NCBI RefSeq assembly: GCF_054482595.1
Contig: NZ_CM137008.1
DNA length: 64,000 nt
Strand: one strand, 5' to 3'
Part shown: one piece after another, positions 1,841 through 10,781 of the stretch
Numbering within the stretch: position 1 is the first letter of the stretch
Layout of the letters: each line of letters begins with the position of its first letter
The notes under the pieces: model-generated
Databases searched by the model: none
What the model was told of the DNA's origin: nothing
Seen by the model: only the letters and a program-made list of their open reading frames with translations
Made by a program: the position numbers and the translations under genes

Positions 1841-3991
1841 ATGGATACGAAAAAACTATTCAAGCACATACCCTGGGTGATTCTCGGAATCATCGGTGCA
1901 TTCTGCCTCGCGGTAGTTGCATTACGTCGGGGGGAGCACGTCAGTGCCCTGTGGATCGTGGTCGCCTCTGTGTCGGTGTATCTGGTGGCGTATCGCTACT
2001 ACAGTCTGTACATCGCCCAGAAGGTGATGAAACTCGACCCTACGCGCGCGACGCCTGCGGTTATTAACAACGACGGTCTGAACTACGTTCCGACCAACCG
2101 TTACGTGTTGTTTGGTCACCACTTCGCCGCTATCGCCGGTGCCGGTCCGCTGGTCGGTCCGGTTCTCGCCGCACAGATGGGCTACCTGCCTGGCACGCTG
2201 TGGCTGCTGGCGGGGGTAGTACTGGCCGGTGCGGTTCAGGACTTTATGGTGCTGTTTATCTCCTCTCGCCGTAACGGCGCATCTCTCGGTGAGATGATCA
2301 AAGAAGAGATGGGACCAGTACCGGGGACTATCGCGCTGTTTGGCTGTTTCTTAATCATGATCATCATCCTCGCCGTTCTGGCGCTGATTGTGGTTAAAGC
2401 CCTGGCCGAAAGTCCGTGGGGTGTCTTCACCGTTTGCTCAACCGTACCGATTGCGCTGTTTATGGGTATCTACATGCGCTTTATCCGTCCGGGGCGTGTG
2501 GGTGAAGTCTCTGTTATTGGTATCGTGCTGCTGGTTGCCTCTATCTACTTCGGTGGCGTGATTGCTCACGATCCGTACTGGGGTCCGGCACTGACCTTTA
2601 AAGACACCACCATTACCTTCGCGCTGATTGGCTATGCGTTTGTTTCCGCACTGCTGCCGGTGTGGCTGATCCTCGCACCGCGCGACTATCTGGCAACCTT
2701 CCTGAAAATCGGCGTTATCGTCGGCCTGGCGCTGGGTATCGTGGTGCTGAACCCGGAACTGAAAATGCCAGCGATGACCCAGTACATTGACGGTACTGGC
2801 CCGCTGTGGAAAGGCGCTCTGTTCCCGTTCCTGTTCATCACCATCGCCTGTGGTGCGGTATCTGGCTTCCACGCGCTGATCTCTTCCGGTACGACGCCGA
2901 AACTGCTGGCTAACGAAACCGACGCGCGTTTCATTGGCTACGGCGCAATGCTGATGGAGTCCTTCGTGGCGATTATGGCGCTGGTTGCTGCGTCCATCAT
3001 CGAACCGGGTCTTTACTTCGCGATGAACACCCCACCTGCTGGCCTTGGCATCACCATGCCTAACCTGCATGAAATGGGTGGCGAGAATGCGCCGATCATC
3101 ATGGCGCAGCTGAAAGACGTTACCGCACACGCGGCGGCGACCGTCAGCTCCTGGGGCTTCGTGATTTCGCCAGAGCAGATCCTGCAAACCGCGAAAGACA
3201 TTGGAGAGCCTTCTGTCCTGAACCGTGCAGGTGGTGCGCCGACGCTGGCGGTAGGTATCGCTCATGTGTTCCACAAAGTGCTGCCGATGGCTGACATGGG
3301 CTTCTGGTATCACTTCGGTATTCTGTTCGAAGCCCTGTTCATCCTGACCGCGCTGGATGCTGGTACCCGTTCTGGCCGCTTTATGCTGCAAGACCTGCTG
3401 GGTAACTTCATCCCGTTCCTGAAAAAAACCGACTCTCTGGTTGCCGGTATCATCGGTACTGCGGGCTGTGTGGGTCTGTGGGGCTACCTGCTGTATCAGG
3501 GCGTGGTCGATCCGCTGGGCGGCGTTAAGAGCTTGTGGCCGCTGTTCGGTATCTCCAACCAGATGCTGGCAGCCGTGGCGCTGGTACTGGGCACCGTTGT
3601 GCTGATTAAGATGAAGCGCACCCAATACATCTGGGTAACTGTTGTTCCGGCCGTATGGCTGCTTATCTGCACCACCTGGGCGCTGGGCCTGAAACTGTTC
3701 AGCACCAACCCGCAGATGGAAGGCTTCTTCTACATGGCAAGCCAGTACAAAGAGAAGATTGCTAACGGTACTGACCTGACGGCGCAGCAGATTGCCAACA
3801 TGAACCACATCGTTGTGAACAACTACACCAACGCGGGCCTGAGTATTCTGTTCCTGATTGTGGTGTACAGCATCATCTTCTACGGTTTCAAAACCTGGCT
3901 TGCGGTGCGTAACAGCGACAAACGTACTGACAAAGAAACACCGTACGTTCCAATCCCGGAAGGCGGCGTGAAGATCTCTTCGCACCACTAA
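1841..3991 (+). CDS. btsT: Pyruvate/H+ symporter BtsT (CstA family; formerly YjiY), 716 aa
   Basis: ORF-track ORF 1826-3991 gives a CstA-family polytopic membrane protein. The start is taken at the ATG at 1841 (MDTKKLFKHIPWVILG...), which matches K-12 length; the ATG at 1826 lacks an SD. Confidence 0.9.
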   Translation: MDTKKLFKHIPWVILGIIGAFCLAVVALRRGEHVSALWIVVASVSVYLVAYRYYSLYIAQKVMKLDPTRATPAVINNDGLNYVPTNRYVLFGHHFAAIAGAGPLVGPVLAAQMGYLPGTLWLLAGVVLAGAVQDFMVLFISSRRNGASLGEMIKEEMGPVPGTIALFGCFLIMIIILAVLALIVVKALAESPWGVFTVCSTVPIALFMGIYMRFIRPGRVGEVSVIGIVLLVASIYFGGVIAHDPYWGPALTFKDTTITFALIGYAFVSALLPVWLILAPRDYLATFLKIGVIVGLALGIVVLNPELKMPAMTQYIDGTGPLWKGALFPFLFITIACGAVSGFHALISSGTTPKLLANETDARFIGYGAMLMESFVAIMALVAASIIEPGLYFAMNTPPAGLGITMPNLHEMGGENAPIIMAQLKDVTAHAAATVSSWGFVISPEQILQTAKDIGEPSVLNRAGGAPTLAVGIAHVFHKVLPMADMGFWYHFGILFEALFILTALDAGTRSGRFMLQDLLGNFIPFLKKTDSLVAGIIGTAGCVGLWGYLLYQGVVDPLGGVKSLWPLFGISNQMLAAVALVLGTVVLIKMKRTQYIWVTVVPAVWLLICTTWALGLKLFSTNPQMEGFFYMASQYKEKIANGTDLTAQQIANMNHIVVNNYTNAGLSILFLIVVYSIIFYGFKTWLAVRNSDKRTDKETPYVPIPEGGVKISSHH

Positions 3992-4000
3992 CCGTGTTTA

Positions 4001-4027
4001 GCCCCGCTTCGGCGGGGCTTTGTTCTT
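4001..4027 (+). terminator. GC-rich hairpin (gccccgc-ttcg-gcggggc) followed by a T-run, between btsT and yjiX
   Basis: Perfect 7-bp stem with a 4-nt loop followed by tttgttctt, read directly. Confidence 0.6.
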
Positions 4028-4040
4028 ATCAGAGTGAACT

Positions 4041-4244
4041 ATGTTTGGTAACTTAGGACAGGCAAAAAAATATCTCGGCCAGGCGGCGAAGATGTTGATT
4101 GGCATTCCAGACTACGACAACTACGTCGAGCATATGAAGACCAACCATCCCGACAAGCCGTACATGAGCTATGAAGAATTCTTCCGCGAACGCCAGAACG
4201 CGCGCTACGGCGGCGATGGTAAAGGCGGTATGCGCTGTTGTTAA
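4041..4244 (+). CDS. yjiX: YbdD/YjiX-family small protein (DUF466), 67 aa
   Basis: ORF-track ORF immediately downstream of btsT, the conserved CstA-family partner arrangement. Confidence 0.85.
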
Positions 4245-4254
4245 TGGAGAGAGC

Positions 4255-5211
4255 ATGAACCCGATTGCAGTTACCCTACTCACCGGTTTTTTAGGCGCGG
4301 GCAAAACCACCCTGCTGCGCCATATTCTTAATGAACAACACGGCTACAAGATTGCCGTGATTGAAAACGAATTCGGCGAAGTCTCCGTTGATGATCAACT
4401 GATTGGCGACCGCGCCACGCAGATCAAAACGCTGACCAACGGCTGCATCTGCTGTTCGCGCTCCAACGAGCTGGAAGACGCACTACTCGACCTGCTGGAT
4501 AATCTCGACAAGGGCAATATTCAGTTCGACCGTCTGGTCATTGAATGCACCGGCATGGCCGATCCCGGCCCGATTATTCAGACCTTTTTCTCCCATGAGA
4601 TTTTATGCCAGCGTTACCTGCTGGACGGCGTGATTGCGCTGGTGGATGCGGTACATGCCGATGAGCAGATGAACCAGTTCACCATCGCCCAGTCCCAGGT
4701 TGGCTACGCCGACCGTATTCTGCTGACTAAAACCGACGTCGCAGGCGAAGCAGAAAAACTGCGCGAACGCCTGGCGCGCATCAACGCCCGTGCACCGGTC
4801 TACACCGTTACCCACGGCGACATCGACCTGGGCCTGCTGTTCAACACCAACGGTTTTATGCTGGAAGAAAACGTCGTCAGCACCAAACCGCGTTTCCACT
4901 TTATCGCGGATAAACAAAACGATATTTCGTCGATTGTGGTAGAACTGGATTACCCGGTAGATATCAGCGAAGTTTCCCGGGTGATGGAAAACCTGCTGCT
5001 GGAATCGGCGGATAAACTACTGCGTTACAAAGGGATGCTATGGATTGACGGCGAACCTAACCGCCTGCTGTTCCAGGGCGTCCAGCGCCTCTACAGCGCC
5101 GACTGGGACCGCCCGTGGGGCGATGAAAAACCGCATAGCACGATGGTGTTTATCGGGATTCAGCTGCCGGAGGAAGAGATTCGGGCGGCGTTTGCGGGGT
5201 TGAGGAAGTAA
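4255..5211 (+). CDS. yjiA: CobW/COG0523-family P-loop GTPase YjiA, 318 aa
   Basis: ORF 4171-5211 contains a GxxGxGKT P-loop (LLTGFLGAGKTTLL) and a CxCC motif (GCICCS). Start is taken at the ATG at 4255, which is preceded by GGAG and sits just after the yjiX stop. Confidence 0.9.
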   Translation: MNPIAVTLLTGFLGAGKTTLLRHILNEQHGYKIAVIENEFGEVSVDDQLIGDRATQIKTLTNGCICCSRSNELEDALLDLLDNLDKGNIQFDRLVIECTGMADPGPIIQTFFSHEILCQRYLLDGVIALVDAVHADEQMNQFTIAQSQVGYADRILLTKTDVAGEAEKLRERLARINARAPVYTVTHGDIDLGLLFNTNGFMLEENVVSTKPRFHFIADKQNDISSIVVELDYPVDISEVSRVMENLLLESADKLLRYKGMLWIDGEPNRLLFQGVQRLYSADWDRPWGDEKPHSTMVFIGIQLPEEEIRAAFAGLRK

Positions 5212-5534
5212 TCACCTTAACCTACTCATACGAAGCGGACGAGGATAAAATCCTTTCATTTTCCGTTCGCTTCATTATTTTATTTTCTTTCCAATGCCCA
5301 TTCAAATTAAAAATATAATTCTGCCATAATTTCCTGAACACAGATGTAATTACATTGCCACCTCTCATACTTCCATATGACTAGTCGTCCTATTGGGGCG
5401 TGATAGATGTATTAATTTCCAAATATGCAAACATTCTGATACAGTCCCAAAAAGAAAATTATTACCAACCCAGACAATCAGCAAATAAATTAATAACAAT
5501 TGAATTATAATCAACACGAATACAAGAGATTAAC

Positions 5535-7385
5535 ATGGCAACAATAATCCCAACAATCAGTAGCTGCAACGATAAAATTACTGCCGGAGAGAAAAGGCTG
5601 GCAAGAATTCTGGAAAGAGGACTAGGCGAAGAGTGCTGCTGTTGGTATGACATTCCCACGGGTGATAAGCATCTTCACCCAGATTTTATGATACTTTCGC
5701 CAGAAAAAGGCATTATTTTTCTCGAGGTAAAAGATTGGTTTATTACAAAAATAAAAAAAGCCAACAAGTCTAATGTTTTGTATGAGACACAAAATGGCAT
5801 TCAATCTTTAAAGAATCCGATAGAACAAGTTAGGCGATATGCTTTCGAAGCTGTAAACCAGTTAAAAAAAGACCCCCTATTGTGCCAACAGGAAGATCGT
5901 TACAATGGCAATCTTCTTTTCCCCTATGGATATGGCGTCTACTTTAGTAATATTACACGAGAAGCATTAAATAATAAATTTACTCAAGAAGAGCTGCTCG
6001 GGATCTTCCCATCAGATCTTATCATCTGCAAAGACGAACTAAATGAATTCATGTCAAAAGGGGATGTTTCATCCAAAATACATTCGTTGATTAAATATGA
6101 CTTCAAATGTCATGCTACACAAGAACAGTTGAACAGGATTAGATGGCACTTATACCCCGATGTCAGAATAGAAAGGGAAAAGAGAAGTAAAAACTGTGAT
6201 GAATTTAGTGTCGATGCACCAACCATCATTTCTATCCTGGATACTCAACAGGAACAACTTGCCAGAAGTATGAGAGACGGCCACCGAATAATTCATGGTG
6301 TTGCAGGTTCAGGTAAGACATTGATCCTCTATCATCGCTGTCAGGAATTAGCGAAAAAAAATGACAGCGAAAAGCCAATACTTGTCATTTGCTACAATAT
6401 TACTTTAGCCAAAAAACTTCGGTCGATGTTCATCAATCATCCCTTTGAAGAGAAAATAAAGGTTAATAATTTTCATGCTTGGTGTTTCCAACAAATTAAA
6501 AAAAACAAGATCACCATTCCAGAAGGGGATAATATTTTTGAAAATATGGAGCAAGCGTTGACTGATGGTTTCAACACAGGAAAAATAAAACCAGAACAAT
6601 ACAGCGCTGTATTAATTGATGAAGGACATGATTTTAAGCCCGAATGGTTAAAAATCCTGGCAAAAATGACTGACTCTCAGGACGAGAATTTGCTATTTCT
6701 TTATGATGATGCTCAGTCAATTTATCAAAAAAAGAAAGCATTAGACTTTACACTGTCCAGCGTGGATATTAAAGCGACAGGACGCACAACTATTCTTAAT
6801 ATAAATTATAGAAACACACAACAAATTCTACACTTTGCCAGTTGCATTGCATTTAATTATCTTAATAGCCATATCGATAGTTCTTTAACCTATCATAAAC
6901 CTGCTGCGGGAGGAATGAATGGCGATTATCCCAAGCTTGAACATTTCGACACACAGGACGAAGAAATAGCAAGAGCAGTCAAATGGATTACAGAGCAAAA
7001 TGAACAAGGGATTCCGTGGTCTGAAATTGCTATACTTAGTCCTTCAACTCACATCCTTTCTAACTCTCTAAGTTCTGTACTTGAATCGAAAAATATCCCC
7101 TTTAATCTTATTGTAAGCTCTGCAGATAAAAAGTCCTGGACGCCAGAACAAGAGCGTATTTCTGTTATGCCATTACCCAGCAGCAAAGGACTTGAGTTTC
7201 ACTCAGTTGTCATTATTGATGCAGCGAGAACACGGGATAATAGTGATGATTTGAGTGAGGATATAAAGAGACTCTATGTAGGTTTTACCCGAGCACGTTG
7301 CAATCTCTTGGTAACCTTGCACGGTGAAGGTGCGTTAAATGAGCATCTACTAAGAACCTATAAGCAAAGCCCACAATATATGTAA
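5535..7385 (+). CDS. NERD-domain / SF1 (UvrD-like) helicase fusion protein, 616 aa; candidate single-gene nuclease-helicase defence protein
   Basis: N-terminal NERD-like motif (GEKRLARILERGL ... HPDFMILSPEKGIIFLEVKDW). Helicase motifs: Walker A HGVAGSGKT, motif II VLIDEGHDF, KGLEFHSVVI, and C-terminal LYVGFTRAR. The gene is strongly AT-rich. Confidence 0.7.
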   Translation: MATIIPTISSCNDKITAGEKRLARILERGLGEECCCWYDIPTGDKHLHPDFMILSPEKGIIFLEVKDWFITKIKKANKSNVLYETQNGIQSLKNPIEQVRRYAFEAVNQLKKDPLLCQQEDRYNGNLLFPYGYGVYFSNITREALNNKFTQEELLGIFPSDLIICKDELNEFMSKGDVSSKIHSLIKYDFKCHATQEQLNRIRWHLYPDVRIEREKRSKNCDEFSVDAPTIISILDTQQEQLARSMRDGHRIIHGVAGSGKTLILYHRCQELAKKNDSEKPILVICYNITLAKKLRSMFINHPFEEKIKVNNFHAWCFQQIKKNKITIPEGDNIFENMEQALTDGFNTGKIKPEQYSAVLIDEGHDFKPEWLKILAKMTDSQDENLLFLYDDAQSIYQKKKALDFTLSSVDIKATGRTTILNINYRNTQQILHFASCIAFNYLNSHIDSSLTYHKPAAGGMNGDYPKLEHFDTQDEEIARAVKWITEQNEQGIPWSEIAILSPSTHILSNSLSSVLESKNIPFNLIVSSADKKSWTPEQERISVMPLPSSKGLEFHSVVIIDAARTRDNSDDLSEDIKRLYVGFTRARCNLLVTLHGEGALNEHLLRTYKQSPQYM

Positions 7386-7403
7386 AAATGATAAATTATC
7401 TCC

Positions 7404-7437
7404 ATAACGCCCGGTAACGCTGTACCGGGCGTTATGA
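7404..7437 (+). terminator. Perfect 14-bp inverted repeat hairpin downstream of the NERD-helicase gene
   Basis: cataacgcccggta-acgctg-taccgggcgttatg read directly; no strong T-run follows. Confidence 0.4.
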
Positions 7438-7626
7438 ATGCATATCTAAGATATTAGTCACGCATGATAGCCGCCACCAAAAACACCATCATCTCCCTCG
7501 CCTCTTTGCGGTGATAAAAGCGTACCATTTTGCTGTTAAATTCCAGCGTTTTAGCCGCTGGAATTAACAAGATCAAACTTCCGGCAACGAAGATTCAGTT
7601 ATTACAAATAATTACTGGAAAAAGAG

Positions 7627-7824
7627 ATGAAAAGCGTGGTTGACAACACATCGAAATATCCTGACTGGAGTAAACGCGATGATATTAAAGCGAAACTGAA
7701 AGTTGAACTTATTCTGCTTCTACACAAGCATAAGTTCCCGCCAGTAGCGAATGATGATGTTTATATGGGTGTGCTGGCACAGGTAGAGAATTTTAAAGAA
7801 CATCATATGAGTGCTTTAAATTAA
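7627..7824 (+). pseudogene. 65-aa ORF, possible C-terminal remnant of a displaced restriction-system gene (hypothesis only)
   Basis: Short ORF upstream of symE in the position occupied by hsd genes in K-12. The motif KRDDIKAKLKVELILLLHKHKFPPV resembles my recollection of type I HsdR C-terminal tails. Unverified. Confidence 0.25.
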
Positions 7825-7943
7825 TCATGAAGGCTGGATACACTTTGTTATCCGGCCATTGTGAATTAATGTTAATTTTTCTTCCAAATCTTTCCAATAA
7901 CGCTTTTATTATTTTCTATTTTTAGCTGGACTTTCCCTGTATT

Positions 7944-7963
7944 TACTGATGATATATCCAGAT
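7944..7963 (+). promoter_or_regulatory. LexA (SOS) box-like CTG-N10-CAG element upstream of symE
   Basis: TACTGATGATATATCCAGAT read directly about 78 bp upstream of the symE ATG; symE is a known SOS-induced gene. Confidence 0.5.
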
Positions 7964-7984
7964 ATTTAGCGCGGTGCGGATGTG

Positions 7985-8065
7985 CGCCAACACACCCGCA
8001 CCGCTCATCACAATCACTATTTTCAAGGAATAGCAGTTATGACTGACACGCATTCTATTGCACAA
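7985..8065 (-). ncRNA. symR: Expected position of SymR antisense sRNA (type I antitoxin) overlapping the symE 5' end; approximate coordinates
   Basis: Placed from the known symE/SymR arrangement, not from detected promoter or terminator signals. A 9-bp inverted repeat GCGGTGCGG/CCGCACCGC lies at 7971-8004. Confidence 0.3.
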
Positions 8066-8380
8066 CCGTTCGAAGCAGAAGTCTCCCCGGCAAATAACCG
8101 TCAATTAACCGTGAGTTATGCGAGCCGCTACCCGGATTGCAGCCGTATTCCCGCCATCACCCTGAAAGGTCAGTGGCTGGAAGCCGCCGGTTTTGCCACC
8201 GGCACAGCGGTAGATGTCAAAGTGATGGAAGGCTGTATTGTCCTCACAGCCCAACCACCCGCCGCCGAAGAGAGCGAACTGATGCAGTCGCTGCGCCAGG
8301 TGTGCAAGCTGTCGGCGCGTAAACAAAAGCAGATACAGGAATTTATTGGGGTGATTGCGGGTAAACAAAAAGTTGCCTGA
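8039..8380 (+). CDS. symE: SOS-induced toxin SymE (type I toxin-antitoxin), 113 aa
   Basis: Internal ATG at 8039 of ORF 7982-8380 gives [33 protein letters not shown]..., matching SymE. Confidence 0.85.
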
Positions 8381-8388
8381 TACATTGA

Positions 8389-8419
8389 CCCGGTAGCACC
8401 AGTGCTACCGGGTATTATT
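8389..8419 (+). terminator. Hairpin plus T-rich tail between convergent symE and the GmrSD-like gene
   Basis: cccggtagca-ccag-tgctaccggg followed by tattatt, read directly. Confidence 0.5.
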
Positions 8420-8426
8420 CGCCGCG

Positions 8427-10520
8427 TTATACCAACGCGCTCTCCATCTGTTTTTCAAATGCCTGACGAATTAATCCCATAATGTAAGGAAGTTGTGCGA
8501 GGTCGCTGAAACAAATTTCCACATCACCATTGCCCCATCGCCCAACATTTGTCACATCTTTGGCAATACCTTTCGGATCGACCAGTTCATGAAACTGCAT
8601 ATTAAGCGACAATCGCAGTCGGCTTTTTTGCGGCACAACATCAACAAAATTCGTTTCAGCTTTAAACGCAATATATAGCTTCAATACTTCCTGCGTGATC
8701 CCTGCGTCCAGGCGCATAACTTCATCGCGAAGATGATCGAATAACACCCGGCTATGCGAACCATCAGCAAGAAAAGGATAATCACTCAGGCTGTAACTGG
8801 TTTTGTTTTCAGGCTGCCCCCGATAAACAGCTAAAACCTCTTCAGAAAGAGAAGGCGCTTGCCAGACCTGAATCGCGAGATCGGCCAGACGATCGGCTCG
8901 GGCGTGAATGGCGGCTTCATCCCATTTTTCGCACTGTCCAAGACCGATATTCAAATAGAGCGGGCTATGCTTAAAGCCGTCTTCAATATCGCGTTTTTCC
9001 GCGAAAGGTCTGTCACTGTAGCGGGAGTTATAGCGCGTTAATGTGAGATTCCCCAACGTATGCAACAGTTCTTTATGAATGCGTTGCCAGTCACTTCCCA
9101 GCTCTTCACGCCATTTAGCCGACAAATTTTCGTTCTGCGGCATAATATGCTCAATCGTAAACTCTTCCACGCGCTCTCTGCGTTTATCGTTTTCCAGTCG
9201 TCGTAACCAGTAGCTGCGACTACGGAAGTTATAGAGATCGCGAACTTTTAATTCCCGTTTAAATTCATCATCGTTGGGGAAACGACGATATGAAGGTAGA
9301 TTCAAAAAATGTACCTGAATACTTTCCAGATAATTTTCTTTATTAATAACTTTATAAAAAGTGGCAAATGTCTTGTTCAAAGAATTTGTCGGAATTGCAC
9401 ATACTGCACGGCGGAAAACATAAGATTCAATTAAACGAATTATGCTCAGAAAATCTTCGTGAGACAAAACGCCATTTTTATAGTCATGATAAAGCGCCAG
9501 TAAGAAAGGATACGCCACATCGACCTTTAACTCGCGCAAATCCTGAAAAGCCGTAGCAAGCGATTTGTCACTTTCTTTTCCCAATGCCATTGCACAGTAA
9601 TACTCCGCGTAGATATGAATATCTTCAACCAGCCGATCTACGCCTTTTTCAGCAACACTCTGGCTGCGGGCATGGAGTTTAAATGCCTCATAGACTTCAT
9701 CTGTCCGAGGGATCTCCCCCGTTTTTACCGTCAGATAATGACGCATAAAACTGTCAAAATATTCGCTGTAACCTTGCTGACCAAAGGCGACTTCCATTGG
9801 ACGCCAGTGATCTTCATACAATCGGGTTTGATGCTCTGGTTCGAGGCCCATCAGAATAAAATTGCGCACCAGATCGGCCTGACTTAACGCCTTACCGGTG
9901 GAGTTCATACTTTCAAAAATCAGTTGCGGATTATCCTGACCACGATTAAGCGCCACATCGACAATTAATAACTTTGCTAACCCACGACATAAGGGGATCA
10001 AGTCATCACCGAGTTTGGCAATTTGTTCATCAAAGAAAGTAAAGTTTTCCATTATTCGATGGGAATAGTTTTCTGGCATTGGTCTTTGTTTTATTAACGC
10101 CAGTAAACTGTCTTTATCAGTCTCGGTCAGCAGTAATTTAAAACCTTTCTCGCCGGACTCATAAGGATTGAGCAAATAATAATTACGCAATTTCATTGCC
10201 GAAAAGCCATCAAAAACTTCGTCTTCGCCAAGATGGCGCGATAAAGCCTCAATCAGCAACATTGCGGTCGTCAGCCGCTGCTGACCATCAATGACCAGCA
10301 ACGGAGAAATACCAGAAACCTGATACAATCCCTGCTCTATATAAACAACCGAACCGATAAAATGCGCTGATATATCGTCACGCTTTCCTGCACGAATGAT
10401 GTCGTCCCAAAGTTGCCGACATTGTTGTTCTGTCCATGAATAAGTCCGTTGATAAATGGGAATAACAAACTGCTGCGAACGTTTTAAAAAATCGAGTAAG
10501 CGAGCTTCTGTAGCTTTCAT
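8427..10520 (-). CDS. DUF262 + DUF1524 (GmrSD-family) putative Type IV modification-dependent restriction endonuclease, 697 aa
   Basis: N-terminal DUF262/ParB-like motifs IPIYQRTYSW and VIDGQQRLTT. C-terminal His-Me finger/DUF1524-like motifs FTIEHIMPQ, GNLTL and YNS. Confidence 0.7.
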   Translation of the reverse strand: MKATEARLLDFLKRSQQFVIPIYQRTYSWTEQQCRQLWDDIIRAGKRDDISAHFIGSVVYIEQGLYQVSGISPLLVIDGQQRLTTAMLLIEALSRHLGEDEVFDGFSAMKLRNYYLLNPYESGEKGFKLLLTETDKDSLLALIKQRPMPENYSHRIMENFTFFDEQIAKLGDDLIPLCRGLAKLLIVDVALNRGQDNPQLIFESMNSTGKALSQADLVRNFILMGLEPEHQTRLYEDHWRPMEVAFGQQGYSEYFDSFMRHYLTVKTGEIPRTDEVYEAFKLHARSQSVAEKGVDRLVEDIHIYAEYYCAMALGKESDKSLATAFQDLRELKVDVAYPFLLALYHDYKNGVLSHEDFLSIIRLIESYVFRRAVCAIPTNSLNKTFATFYKVINKENYLESIQVHFLNLPSYRRFPNDDEFKRELKVRDLYNFRSRSYWLRRLENDKRRERVEEFTIEHIMPQNENLSAKWREELGSDWQRIHKELLHTLGNLTLTRYNSRYSDRPFAEKRDIEDGFKHSPLYLNIGLGQCEKWDEAAIHARADRLADLAIQVWQAPSLSEEVLAVYRGQPENKTSYSLSDYPFLADGSHSRVLFDHLRDEVMRLDAGITQEVLKLYIAFKAETNFVDVVPQKSRLRLSLNMQFHELVDPKGIAKDVTNVGRWGNGDVEICFSDLAQLPYIMGLIRQAFEKQMESALV

Positions 10521-10616
10521 TCTGACGTCTTTCCGTGAAACGATGATTTCGCAATAATAACCACTTCCTTGTGGAGGTTATAGAGAAATCCTGTTTATCC
10601 GCGACGAACATACCCC

Positions 10617-10781
10617 TCACTCCACATCCTCCCTGCGTAACCCAATATCCCTCAACCGCTCATCACTCATCTGCTGTAACACTCGTCGGGTCTGCATTTG
10701 CCGCCGCCAACGCCTCACCGCCTGCCAGAGTTGCACAAGTCTGATAAACGGCGTTTTGGCTTTGTTTTCGTGAAATTCCAT
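10617..10781 (-). CDS. yjiS: DUF1127 small protein YjiS (54 aa), missed by the ORF track (below size cutoff)
   Basis: Minus-strand translation MEFHENKAKTPFIRLVQLWQAVRRWRRQMQTRRVLQQMSDERLRDIGLRREDVE, with GAGGAGG SD 5 nt upstream of the ATG at 10781. Confidence 0.7.
   Translation of the reverse strand: MEFHENKAKTPFIRLVQLWQAVRRWRRQMQTRRVLQQMSDERLRDIGLRREDVE

What the first reader, a model, noticed from the sequence alone, without database searches (positions are those of the whole stretch)
7627..7824. Possible ghost of a displaced restriction gene upstream of symE
A 65-aa ORF lies where hsd genes sit in K-12, and its sequence resembles what I recall of type I HsdR C-terminal tails. If correct it marks the deletion or replacement breakpoint that brought in the NERD-helicase gene.
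Basis: inference. Interest (0 to 1): 0.3.

Follow-up and report, generated by a model that had tools for sequence, protein, structure and literature searches.

The report
Leftover tail of deleted restriction gene
The 65-codon reading frame upstream of symE is the leftover tail of a type I restriction enzyme gene (hsdR) that was mostly deleted from this E. coli defence island; public annotation already marks it as a pseudogene.

Summary
ORF 7627-7824 (+) exists. Its product matches the extreme C-terminus of Pfam T1RH-like_C (E=1.5e-14). It is 63/65 identical to the last 65 residues of an intact 1087-aa HsdR that sits directly upstream of symE in ST131-type E. coli.

The parent gene is not the K-12 EcoKI type. 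EcoKI HsdR and HsdS give no hit, the C-terminal domain differs, and the gene order is hsdM-hsdS-hsdR.

The ghost is larger than the ORF. Piece A (7561-7613) covers hsdR codons 902-919/920. Piece B (7614-7824) covers codons 1019-1087. An in-frame 297-bp deletion between imperfect 15-nt repeats joins them. This allele also has a +1 T insertion at 7609 that puts a stop before the internal Met.

The left breakpoint (7561-7564, 4-nt GAAT microhomology) joins hsdR to a second, unannotated ghost. This is the last 36 codons of a fic gene on the minus strand (7454-7564), not the NERD-helicase gene. The claim that this breakpoint brought in the NERD-helicase is therefore not established.

The same scar occurs in 100 of 5426 complete E. 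coli genomes. RefSeq PGAP annotates it as an N-terminally truncated pseudogene. Frameshifted variants of the tail in other lineages argue against function. The finding is ordinary and of low interest.

The parts
7627..7824 (+). The flagged 65-aa ORF. It equals residues 1023-1087 plus the stop of the parent 1087-aa HsdR, and its ATG is an internal Met of that protein.
   Evidence: 194/198 nt and 63/65 aa identical to ST131 hsdR; Pfam T1RH-like_C E=1.5e-14
7614..7824 (+). hsdR remnant piece B (codons 1019-1087 plus stop). This is essentially the PGAP pseudogene (7615-7824).
   Evidence: blastn window 7614-8356 = L003 12350-13092, 94.2%; PGAP feature in XH990
7561..7613 (+). hsdR remnant piece A (codons 902-919/920). 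A +1 T insertion at 7609 creates an in-frame TAA just before piece B.
   Evidence: blastn window 7561-7628 = L003 12001-12067, 95.6%; alignments; the T is absent in LR-62-2, SMS-3-5 and E2348/69
7614..7628 (+). Junction of the in-frame 297-bp (99-codon) internal hsdR deletion. It lies within imperfect direct repeats ACTGGAAAAAGCGAT / ACTGGCAAAAGAGAT of the intact gene.
   Evidence: overlapping blastn segments; sequences of both sites in L003
7561..7564 (.). GAAT microhomology at the fic|hsdR deletion junction.
   Evidence: fic homology runs to 7564 and hsdR homology starts at 7561
7454..7564 (-). Second gene ghost, unannotated: the last 36 codons plus stop of a Fic-family gene (…IPAAKTLEFNSKMVRFYHRKEAREMMVFLVAAIMRD*).
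   Evidence: 82-90% nt identity to the 3' end of intact fic genes in other ICR alleles; tblastn Fic residues 210-239, 83%, E=2e-11
7401..7438 (.). Long hairpin between the NERD-helicase stop and the fic stop. It is terminator-like on the minus strand.
   Evidence: 16-pair stem, T-run on the minus strand; dG -25.7 kcal/mol, z = -6.3
7825..7907 (+). 3' flank of the hsdR cassette. It is shared with ST131-type alleles but not with K-12, whose homology starts at 7907/7908. This is the retained right end of the displaced cassette.
   Evidence: L003 match is continuous through it; the K-12 match begins at 7908
5535..7385 (+). NERD + UvrD-like helicase gene (616 aa) occupying the yjiA-proximal end of the island. 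Context only, not part of the ghost.
   Evidence: Pfam NERD, UvrD-helicase, UvrD_C; PGAP '3'-5' exonuclease'
8039..8380 (+). symE, the conserved neighbour downstream. symR is antisense at 7968-8044.

Best explanation
The ORF is an inert relic: the 3' end of a type I restriction endonuclease gene (hsdR, 1087 aa, with a T1RH-like_C/DUF3387 tail). That gene once lay directly upstream of symE in an hsdM-hsdS-hsdR cassette of the E. coli immigration control region. An illegitimate deletion with 4-nt microhomology (GAAT) fused hsdR codon 902 to the 3' end of a convergently placed fic gene. It removed the rest of fic, everything between the two genes, and the first 901 codons of hsdR. A second deletion of 297 bp, between imperfect 15-nt direct repeats, removed codons ~920-1018. 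In this allele group a +1 T insertion then closed the frame, leaving an internal Met as the apparent start of a 65-codon ORF. Shown: the homology, both junctions, and that all five sequenced carriers examined share them. Inferred: the order of events, and that the fragment has no function and persists only because too little time has passed for it to erode.
For: Identity of the ghost: Pfam T1RH-like_C E=1.5e-14 at the very end of the profile. The ORF is 194/198 nt and 63/65 aa identical to the last 65 codons of intact ST131 hsdR, which lies directly upstream of symE. tblastn gives E=6e-36. Junctions. Single origin: the window, XH990, LR-62-2, SMS-3-5 and E2348/69 share both junctions, while the +1 T is found only in the window/XH990 group. 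The scar is present in 100 of 5426 complete genomes. The intact or near-intact 3' end is present in about 1047 genomes. No expression signals: no sigma-70-like promoter on the + strand in 7300-8450, and AAGAG directly abuts the ATG, a poor Shine-Dalgarno spacing (read from the sequence). No partners: no hsdM or hsdS anywhere in the 64-kb window. Decay elsewhere: the same tail occurs with frameshifted C-termini (P0013 on 90 contigs; P0004, P0016, P0032) and with other left junctions, including hsdM'-'hsdR fusions. PGAP annotates it as a pseudogene.
Against: The 198-nt ORF has no stop or frameshift in any of the five carriers examined. It shows 8 variable sites (5 synonymous, 3 non-synonymous) and lower diversity (4%) than its flanks (9-10%). 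This is a faint purifying-selection-like pattern. Recombination with the intact alleles carried by about 19% of genomes, or simple youth of the deletion, would give the same pattern, and n=8 sites is very small.
Confidence: 0.9

Rival explanations
1. The tail is a retained, expressed small protein. It would be an HsdR C-terminal module that binds type I methyltransferase cores, for example as a decoy that blocks assembly of incoming or resident restriction complexes of the same family.
For: The ORF is intact in all five carriers, with 5 synonymous to 3 non-synonymous changes and lower diversity than the flanks. Gene callers report it as a 65-97 aa 'DUF3387 domain-containing protein'. From general knowledge of EcoKI and EcoR124I, the C-terminal region of HsdR contributes to contacts with the methyltransferase; this was not tested here.
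Against: There is no promoter-like site and the SD spacing is poor. The two allele groups would make different products: 65 aa here, against a frame of about 101 codons that stays open upstream into fic-antisense sequence in the other group. Frameshifted tails are common in other lineages. No cognate hsdM or hsdS lies in the window. The fragment is only the last 56 of 329 domain positions, so it is unlikely to fold alone.
Confidence: 0.04
2. The ghost is the scar of the single replacement event that brought in the NERD-helicase gene.
For: In E. coli the NERD-helicase gene always occurs with this scar. 100 of the 103 genomes matching the NERD cassette query carry it in full, matching the 100 genomes that carry the junction region. 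The other 3 match only the fic part.
Against: A fic remnant and a hairpin lie between the NERD gene and the hsdR breakpoint. The hsdR junction is therefore fic|hsdR, which requires a genome that held both fic and hsdR. A NERD-helicase homologue sits next to yjiA in Huaxiibacter and Lelliottia without fic, hsdR or symE, so it is a separate, long-standing occupant of the yjiA-proximal slot. At least two events are needed.
Confidence: 0.15
3. The ghost derives from the K-12-type EcoKI (type IA) hsd genes that occupy this position in K-12.
For: Position only: K-12 has hsdR-hsdM-hsdS immediately upstream of symE in the same orientation.
Against: EcoKI HsdR, HsdM and HsdS give no tblastn hit in the window at E<=0.01. 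EcoKI HsdR ends in EcoEI_R_C, not T1RH-like_C. K-12 nucleotide homology begins only at 7908, downstream of the ghost.
Confidence: 0.01

Closest known systems
Intact hsdR of the hsdM-hsdS-hsdR cassette upstream of symE in E. coli ST131-type strains (e.g. WP_000058884.1, strain 5506)
   Same: The last 65 codons are 97% identical at protein level and 98% at nucleotide level. The 3' flank and the downstream symE are the same.
   Different: The window lacks codons 1-901 and ~920-1018, has a +1 frameshift in the retained piece A, and has no hsdM or hsdS.
   Same: Same chromosomal slot between yjiA and symE in the immigration control region, and same orientation relative to symE.
   Different: No detectable sequence similarity. 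The C-terminal domain differs (EcoEI_R_C), as does the gene order: R-M-S with hsdS next to symE.
Cassette-like variation of the E. coli immigration control region (Sibley & Raleigh 2004, cited in PMC8287963; reviewed in PMC12707154 and PMC3874165)
   Same: A hypervariable defence island bounded by yjiA and yjiS/yjiN. It holds alternative type I and type IV systems plus brnAT, symE/symR and rpn (PMC12707154). The window is one such allele: NERD-helicase, the ghosts, symE and GmrSD.
   Different: The review passages I retrieved by term search do not mention this scar, fic or the NERD-helicase occupant. I could not read Sibley & Raleigh 2004.
Other decayed forms of the same hsdR in E. coli (hsdM'-'hsdR fusion pseudogenes in T309.Ta3 and LWY24; 'DUF3387 domain-containing protein' fragments)
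   Same: The same 3' tail is retained next to symE, and it is annotated as an N-terminally truncated pseudogene.
   Different: The left junctions differ, these forms lack the 297-bp deletion, and some have frameshifted tails. These are independent decay events.

Membership tests
Type I restriction endonuclease subunit HsdR (as a fragment or pseudogene of one) | Significant sequence match to an HsdR-specific domain | tested here: met
   Pfam PF11867 T1RH-like_C, 54.5 bits against a cutoff of 26.8, E=1.5e-14, profile positions 273-328 of 329
Type I restriction endonuclease subunit HsdR (as a fragment or pseudogene of one) | Collinear with the 3' end of an intact hsdR that has the full domain set (HSDR_N nuclease, SWI2/SNF2 motor, T1R_D3, C-terminal domain) and adjacent hsdM and hsdS | tested here: met
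   ST131 hsdR (1087 aa) has all domains and lies after hsdM and hsdS. The window matches its last 211 nt plus 53 nt from further upstream
Functional HsdR | Nuclease (HSDR_N) and ATPase motor domains present; cognate HsdM and HsdS available | tested here: not met
   Only residues 902-919/920 and 1019-1087 remain. There is no hsdM or hsdS in the 64-kb window
Type IA (EcoKI) family | Sequence similarity to EcoKI HsdR; EcoEI_R_C C-terminal domain | tested here: not met
   No tblastn hit; different Pfam C-terminal domain
Type ID (StySBLI / EcoR9I / KpnAI) family as parent of the ghost | High identity of HsdR and HsdM to StySBLI, EcoR9I or KpnAI, or genetic complementation | not testable with these tools
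   No reference sequence for a type ID member was available. The review says the ICR holds types IA, IB and ID (PMC12707154), which would point to ID by elimination. However, SK1144 carries yet another HsdR family in the ICR (23.5% identity, no T1RH-like_C), so elimination is unsafe. The similar sizes of KpnAI subunits are recalled from memory only.
Type IC (EcoR124I) family as parent | Close similarity to EcoR124I HsdR | tested here: not met
   phmmer of ST131 HsdR against PDB matches EcoR124I HsdR only weakly (E~1e-24) and only over the motor region 142-510. The tail is not aligned
Fic family protein (second ghost, 7454-7564, minus strand) | Collinear similarity to an annotated intact fic gene; Fic motif present | tested here: inconclusive
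   Similarity to the last ~36 codons is clear. The Fic catalytic motif lies in the deleted part, so this is a fragment only.

The most novel reading that the evidence does not exclude
The retained HsdR tail, 65 aa here and up to about 97 aa in the other allele group, is translated and acts as a free C-terminal assembly module. It would bind type I methyltransferase cores of the ST131-type family and so modulate or block restriction, for example against incoming cassettes during island exchange.
Probability: 0.03. Interest if true: 0.5.

Novelty: already known. Interest (0 to 1): 0.1.

Why it matters
It matters little as biology. The ghost is a routine pseudogene fragment in a well-known hypervariable defence island, and RefSeq already flags it. 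Its modest value is as a historical marker. It shows that this island allele descends from one that carried an ST131-type hsdM-hsdS-hsdR cassette and a fic gene. It shows that the loss went through microhomology-mediated deletions rather than a clean cassette swap. The scar, shared by about 2% of complete E. coli genomes including E2348/69 and SMS-3-5, can serve as a lineage or recombination marker for this island. The unannotated fic fragment is a small annotation correction.

Tried and rejected
- **NCBIfam scan of the 65-aa peptide:** no hit. The models are built for full-length proteins.
- **Reading Sibley & Raleigh 2004 and Titheradge et al. 2001**, for cassette junctions and type ID gene order: neither paper is held.
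- **Assigning the parent to type ID by elimination:** abandoned as a firm claim after SK1144 showed another HsdR family in the island.
- **SK1144-like allele** (yjiA, brnA, fic, GmrSD, hsdMSR) as the direct progenitor: rejected. Its HsdR is only 23.5% identical to the ST131 type, it has no match to the ghost, and the allele lacks symE.
- **Searching for an ancestral arrangement** of yjiA, NERD-helicase, intact fic and hsd in other species (genome-contig scan). Only three loci were found, and the two from outside Escherichia (Huaxiibacter, Lelliottia) have neither fic nor hsdR. The third, Escherichia sp. E1V33, ends within the NERD-helicase gene, so its downstream content could not be read.
- **The inverted repeat ATTCCAGCG-N7-CGCTGGAAT at 7540-7564**, considered as a mobile-element end: rejected. 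It lies inside fic coding sequence, and intact fic genes have it in part.
- **A weak tblastn segment** (HsdR 847-917 against 7395-7607, 41%, E=0.002). I treated it as a spurious extension of piece A, because the nucleotides there match fic at 82-90% and not hsdR.
- **Target-site duplications or shared spacer halves flanking the NERD cassette:** none seen. All alleles diverge right at the yjiA stop codon.

Full report
**Observation**

The ORF exists as described: 7627..7824, + strand, ATG start, 65 aa. It lies 214 nt upstream of symE (8039-8380). The antisense RNA symR is at 7968-8044 on the minus strand (Rfam RF01809, 91.7 bits).

The window is the E. coli immigration control region (ICR). Its layout is btsT, yjiX, yjiA (ends 5211), a NERD + UvrD-like helicase gene (5535-7385), the ORF, symE, a GmrSD gene on the minus strand (8427-10520), yjiS and yjiR. 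This comes from the annotation of strain XH990, which is 100% identical over 7386-8040, and from Pfam.

In K-12, hsdR, hsdM, hsdS and symE are contiguous and co-oriented. The ORF therefore does lie where the hsd genes sit in K-12, although in K-12 hsdS rather than hsdR abuts symE.

**Is it more than chance?**

A 65-codon ORF alone means nothing, since 104 ORFs of 40 aa or more occur in the first 16 kb. The similarity is decisive:
- Pfam PF11867 (T1RH-like_C, the C-terminal domain of the type I HindI-like endonuclease subunit) scores 54.5 bits, E=1.5e-14. The match covers profile positions 273-328 of 329, the very end of the domain.
- About 1047 of 5426 complete E. coli genomes carry this DNA at 94-100% identity. 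In most it is the 3' end of a gene annotated 'type I restriction endonuclease subunit R'.
- In ST131 strain 5506 the island reads yjiA, brnAT, an Mrr-cat endonuclease, hsdM (539 aa), hsdS (434 aa), hsdR (1087 aa), symE.
- The ORF is 194/198 nt and 63/65 aa identical to the last 65 codons of that hsdR. tblastn gives E=6e-36.
- Its ATG is Met1023, an internal Met of HsdR.

**Anatomy of the scar**

blastn against the ST131 locus gives two pieces:
- Window 7561-7628 matches L003 12001-12067 (95.6%).
- Window 7614-8356 matches L003 12350-13092 (94.2%).

Piece A (7561-7613) is hsdR codons 902-919/920. Piece B (7614-7824) is codons 1019-1087 plus the stop. The 15-nt overlap reflects imperfect direct repeats in the intact gene, ACTGGAAAAAGCGAT and ACTGGCAAAAGAGAT. 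A 297-bp (99-codon, in-frame) deletion occurred between them.

In the window a T inserted at 7609 creates an in-frame TAA just upstream of the Met. LR-62-2, SMS-3-5 and E2348/69 lack this T. In them the frame stays open through piece A and beyond.

Left of 7561 the sequence is not hsdR. Window 7454-7564 on the minus strand matches the 3' end of Fic-family genes that sit next to yjiA in other ICR alleles:
- 90% nucleotide identity to strain E04 and 82% to SK1144.
- The translation …IPAAKTLEFNSKMVRFYHRKEAREMMVFLVAAIMRD* aligns with …IPAAKALEFNSKMVRFYHSKDATEMMAFLVECYQL*.
- tblastn gives E=2e-11.

fic homology runs to 7564 and hsdR homology starts at 7561. The junction therefore has 4 nt of microhomology (GAAT). 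PGAP annotates nothing over the fic fragment.

Between the NERD-helicase stop and the fic stop lies a 16-pair hairpin (7401-7438; dG -25.7 kcal/mol, z = -6.3). Its T-run is on the minus strand, so it reads as a fic-side terminator.

Downstream of the ghost, 7825-7907 is shared with the ST131-type allele but not with K-12, whose homology begins at 7908. So 7561-7907 is the retained right end of the displaced cassette.

**Population picture**

The NERD-helicase cassette occurs in full in 100 complete genomes, always on the chromosome, and 100 complete genomes cover at least 80% of the junction region 7386-8040.

There are two allele groups: 19 genomes at 99% identity or more to the window, and 81 at about 96%. 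All five representatives examined share both junctions, which points to a single origin. The representatives are the window, XH990, LR-62-2, SMS-3-5 and E2348/69.

The downstream GmrSD gene is present in some carriers and absent in others.

Independent decay forms of the same hsdR also exist:
- hsdM'-'hsdR fusion pseudogenes that retain 669 nt of the tail.
- In the protein database, tails with frameshifted C-termini (P0013 on 90 contigs; P0004, P0016, P0032) or other N-terminal junctions (P0001, P0007, P0009, P0020).
- Source annotations for such tail fragments (P0002, P0013) call them 'DUF3387 domain-containing protein' or 'hsdR-like'.

**Mechanism and explanation**

The best reading is an inert relic. 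Two microhomology or short-repeat deletions and one frameshift reduced a 1087-codon hsdR to 264 nt (7561-7824). The 65-codon ORF is the accident of an internal Met downstream of the new stop.

Several results support this:
- There is no sigma-70-like promoter on the + strand.
- The only purine-rich stretch directly abuts the ATG.
- There are no hsdM or hsdS genes in the window.
- The fragment is only the last sixth of its domain.

The one contrary hint is weak. Among the five carriers the ORF has 8 variable sites (5 synonymous, 3 non-synonymous), no disruption, and about 4% diversity against 9-10% in the flanks. The numbers are tiny. Recombination with the intact alleles carried by about a fifth of the species would import selection-filtered variation. 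Frameshifted tails elsewhere show that the tail is dispensable.

**The NERD-helicase corollary**

The hsdR breakpoint in fact abuts fic, not the NERD gene, so the deletion happened in a genome that held both fic and hsdR.

A 63%-identical NERD-helicase lies directly after yjiA in Huaxiibacter chinensis and Lelliottia sp. There it is followed by YfaZ, aldehyde dehydrogenase, AraC, LysE and yjiN, with no fic, hsdR or symE. It looks like a separate, long-standing occupant of the yjiA-proximal slot.

All alleles diverge exactly at the yjiA stop codon, and no insertion signature is visible. In E. coli the NERD gene and the scar always co-occur, so they have travelled together since. A single causal event is not shown and would need at least two steps.

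**Comparison with known systems**

The parent is a type I HsdR but not EcoKI (type IA). There is no similarity to EcoKI subunits, and the C-terminal domain differs (EcoEI_R_C in EcoKI). It is only distantly related to EcoR124I (type IC), with the motor region alone aligned.

A recent review states that the ICR hosts types IA, IB and ID (PMC12707154). That makes type ID the natural guess. I could not test it against StySBLI, EcoR9I or KpnAI. SK1144 carries yet another HsdR family in the island, so elimination is unsafe.

ICR cassette variation is well documented (PMC12707154, PMC3874165, PMC4437046).

**Verdict**

The core interpretation, an HsdR C-terminal ghost, is supported. The K-12 analogy and the breakpoint corollary need correction.

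The feature is already annotated as a pseudogene in RefSeq and is ordinary for this locus. The small additions here are the exact junctions, the internal 297-bp deletion, the allele-specific frameshift and the unannotated fic ghost. Interest is low.

Noticed in passing
window 7454-7564 (minus strand): An unannotated second gene ghost: the last 36 codons plus stop of a Fic-family gene, fused to the hsdR remnant through a 4-nt GAAT microhomology. PGAP lists no feature here.
   Followed up: yes
window 7401-7438: A 16-pair GC-rich hairpin (dG -25.7 kcal/mol, z = -6.3) between the convergent NERD-helicase stop and the fic-remnant stop. It looks like a terminator on the minus strand only.
   Followed up: partly
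window 5535-7385; L010 and L011 10001-11833: The NERD + UvrD-like helicase gene (PGAP: '3'-5' exonuclease') sits directly after yjiA in E. coli. A 63%-identical homologue holds the same position in Huaxiibacter chinensis and Lelliottia sp. WAP21. It is a conserved-position defence-island occupant of untested function. In some E. coli it is interrupted by IS903B (LR-62-2) or IS1 (THO-010).
   Followed up: partly
window 8427-10520 (minus strand): A GmrSD-family type IV restriction gene (GmrSD_N + GmrSD_C + DUF5655, 697 aa) is intact in the window. It is annotated as split or partly pseudogenised in XH990 and SMS-3-5, and is absent from E2348/69 and LR-62-2, which carry the same upstream scar.
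   Followed up: partly
L014 (E. coli SK1144 ICR), 3736-10648: A further type I system in the ICR: HsdM 781 aa, and HsdR 1087 aa that is only 23.5% identical to the ST131 type and lacks T1RH-like_C. It comes with fic and GmrSD, without symE. The island therefore holds more HsdR sequence families than K-12-type and ST131-type.
   Followed up: partly
L004 and L005, 8725-9560: An independent decay route of the same cassette. An hsdM N-terminal fragment is fused to the last 669 nt of hsdR, deleting most of hsdM, all of hsdS and most of hsdR. It is seen in T309.Ta3 and LWY24.
   Followed up: partly
window ~1006-1548 (by correspondence with XH990 locus 2621-3163): RefSeq annotates a 'hypothetical protein, internal stop' pseudogene between tsr and btsT in the near-identical strain XH990. 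The window has split ORFs there (1006-1395, 1399-1548).
   Followed up: no
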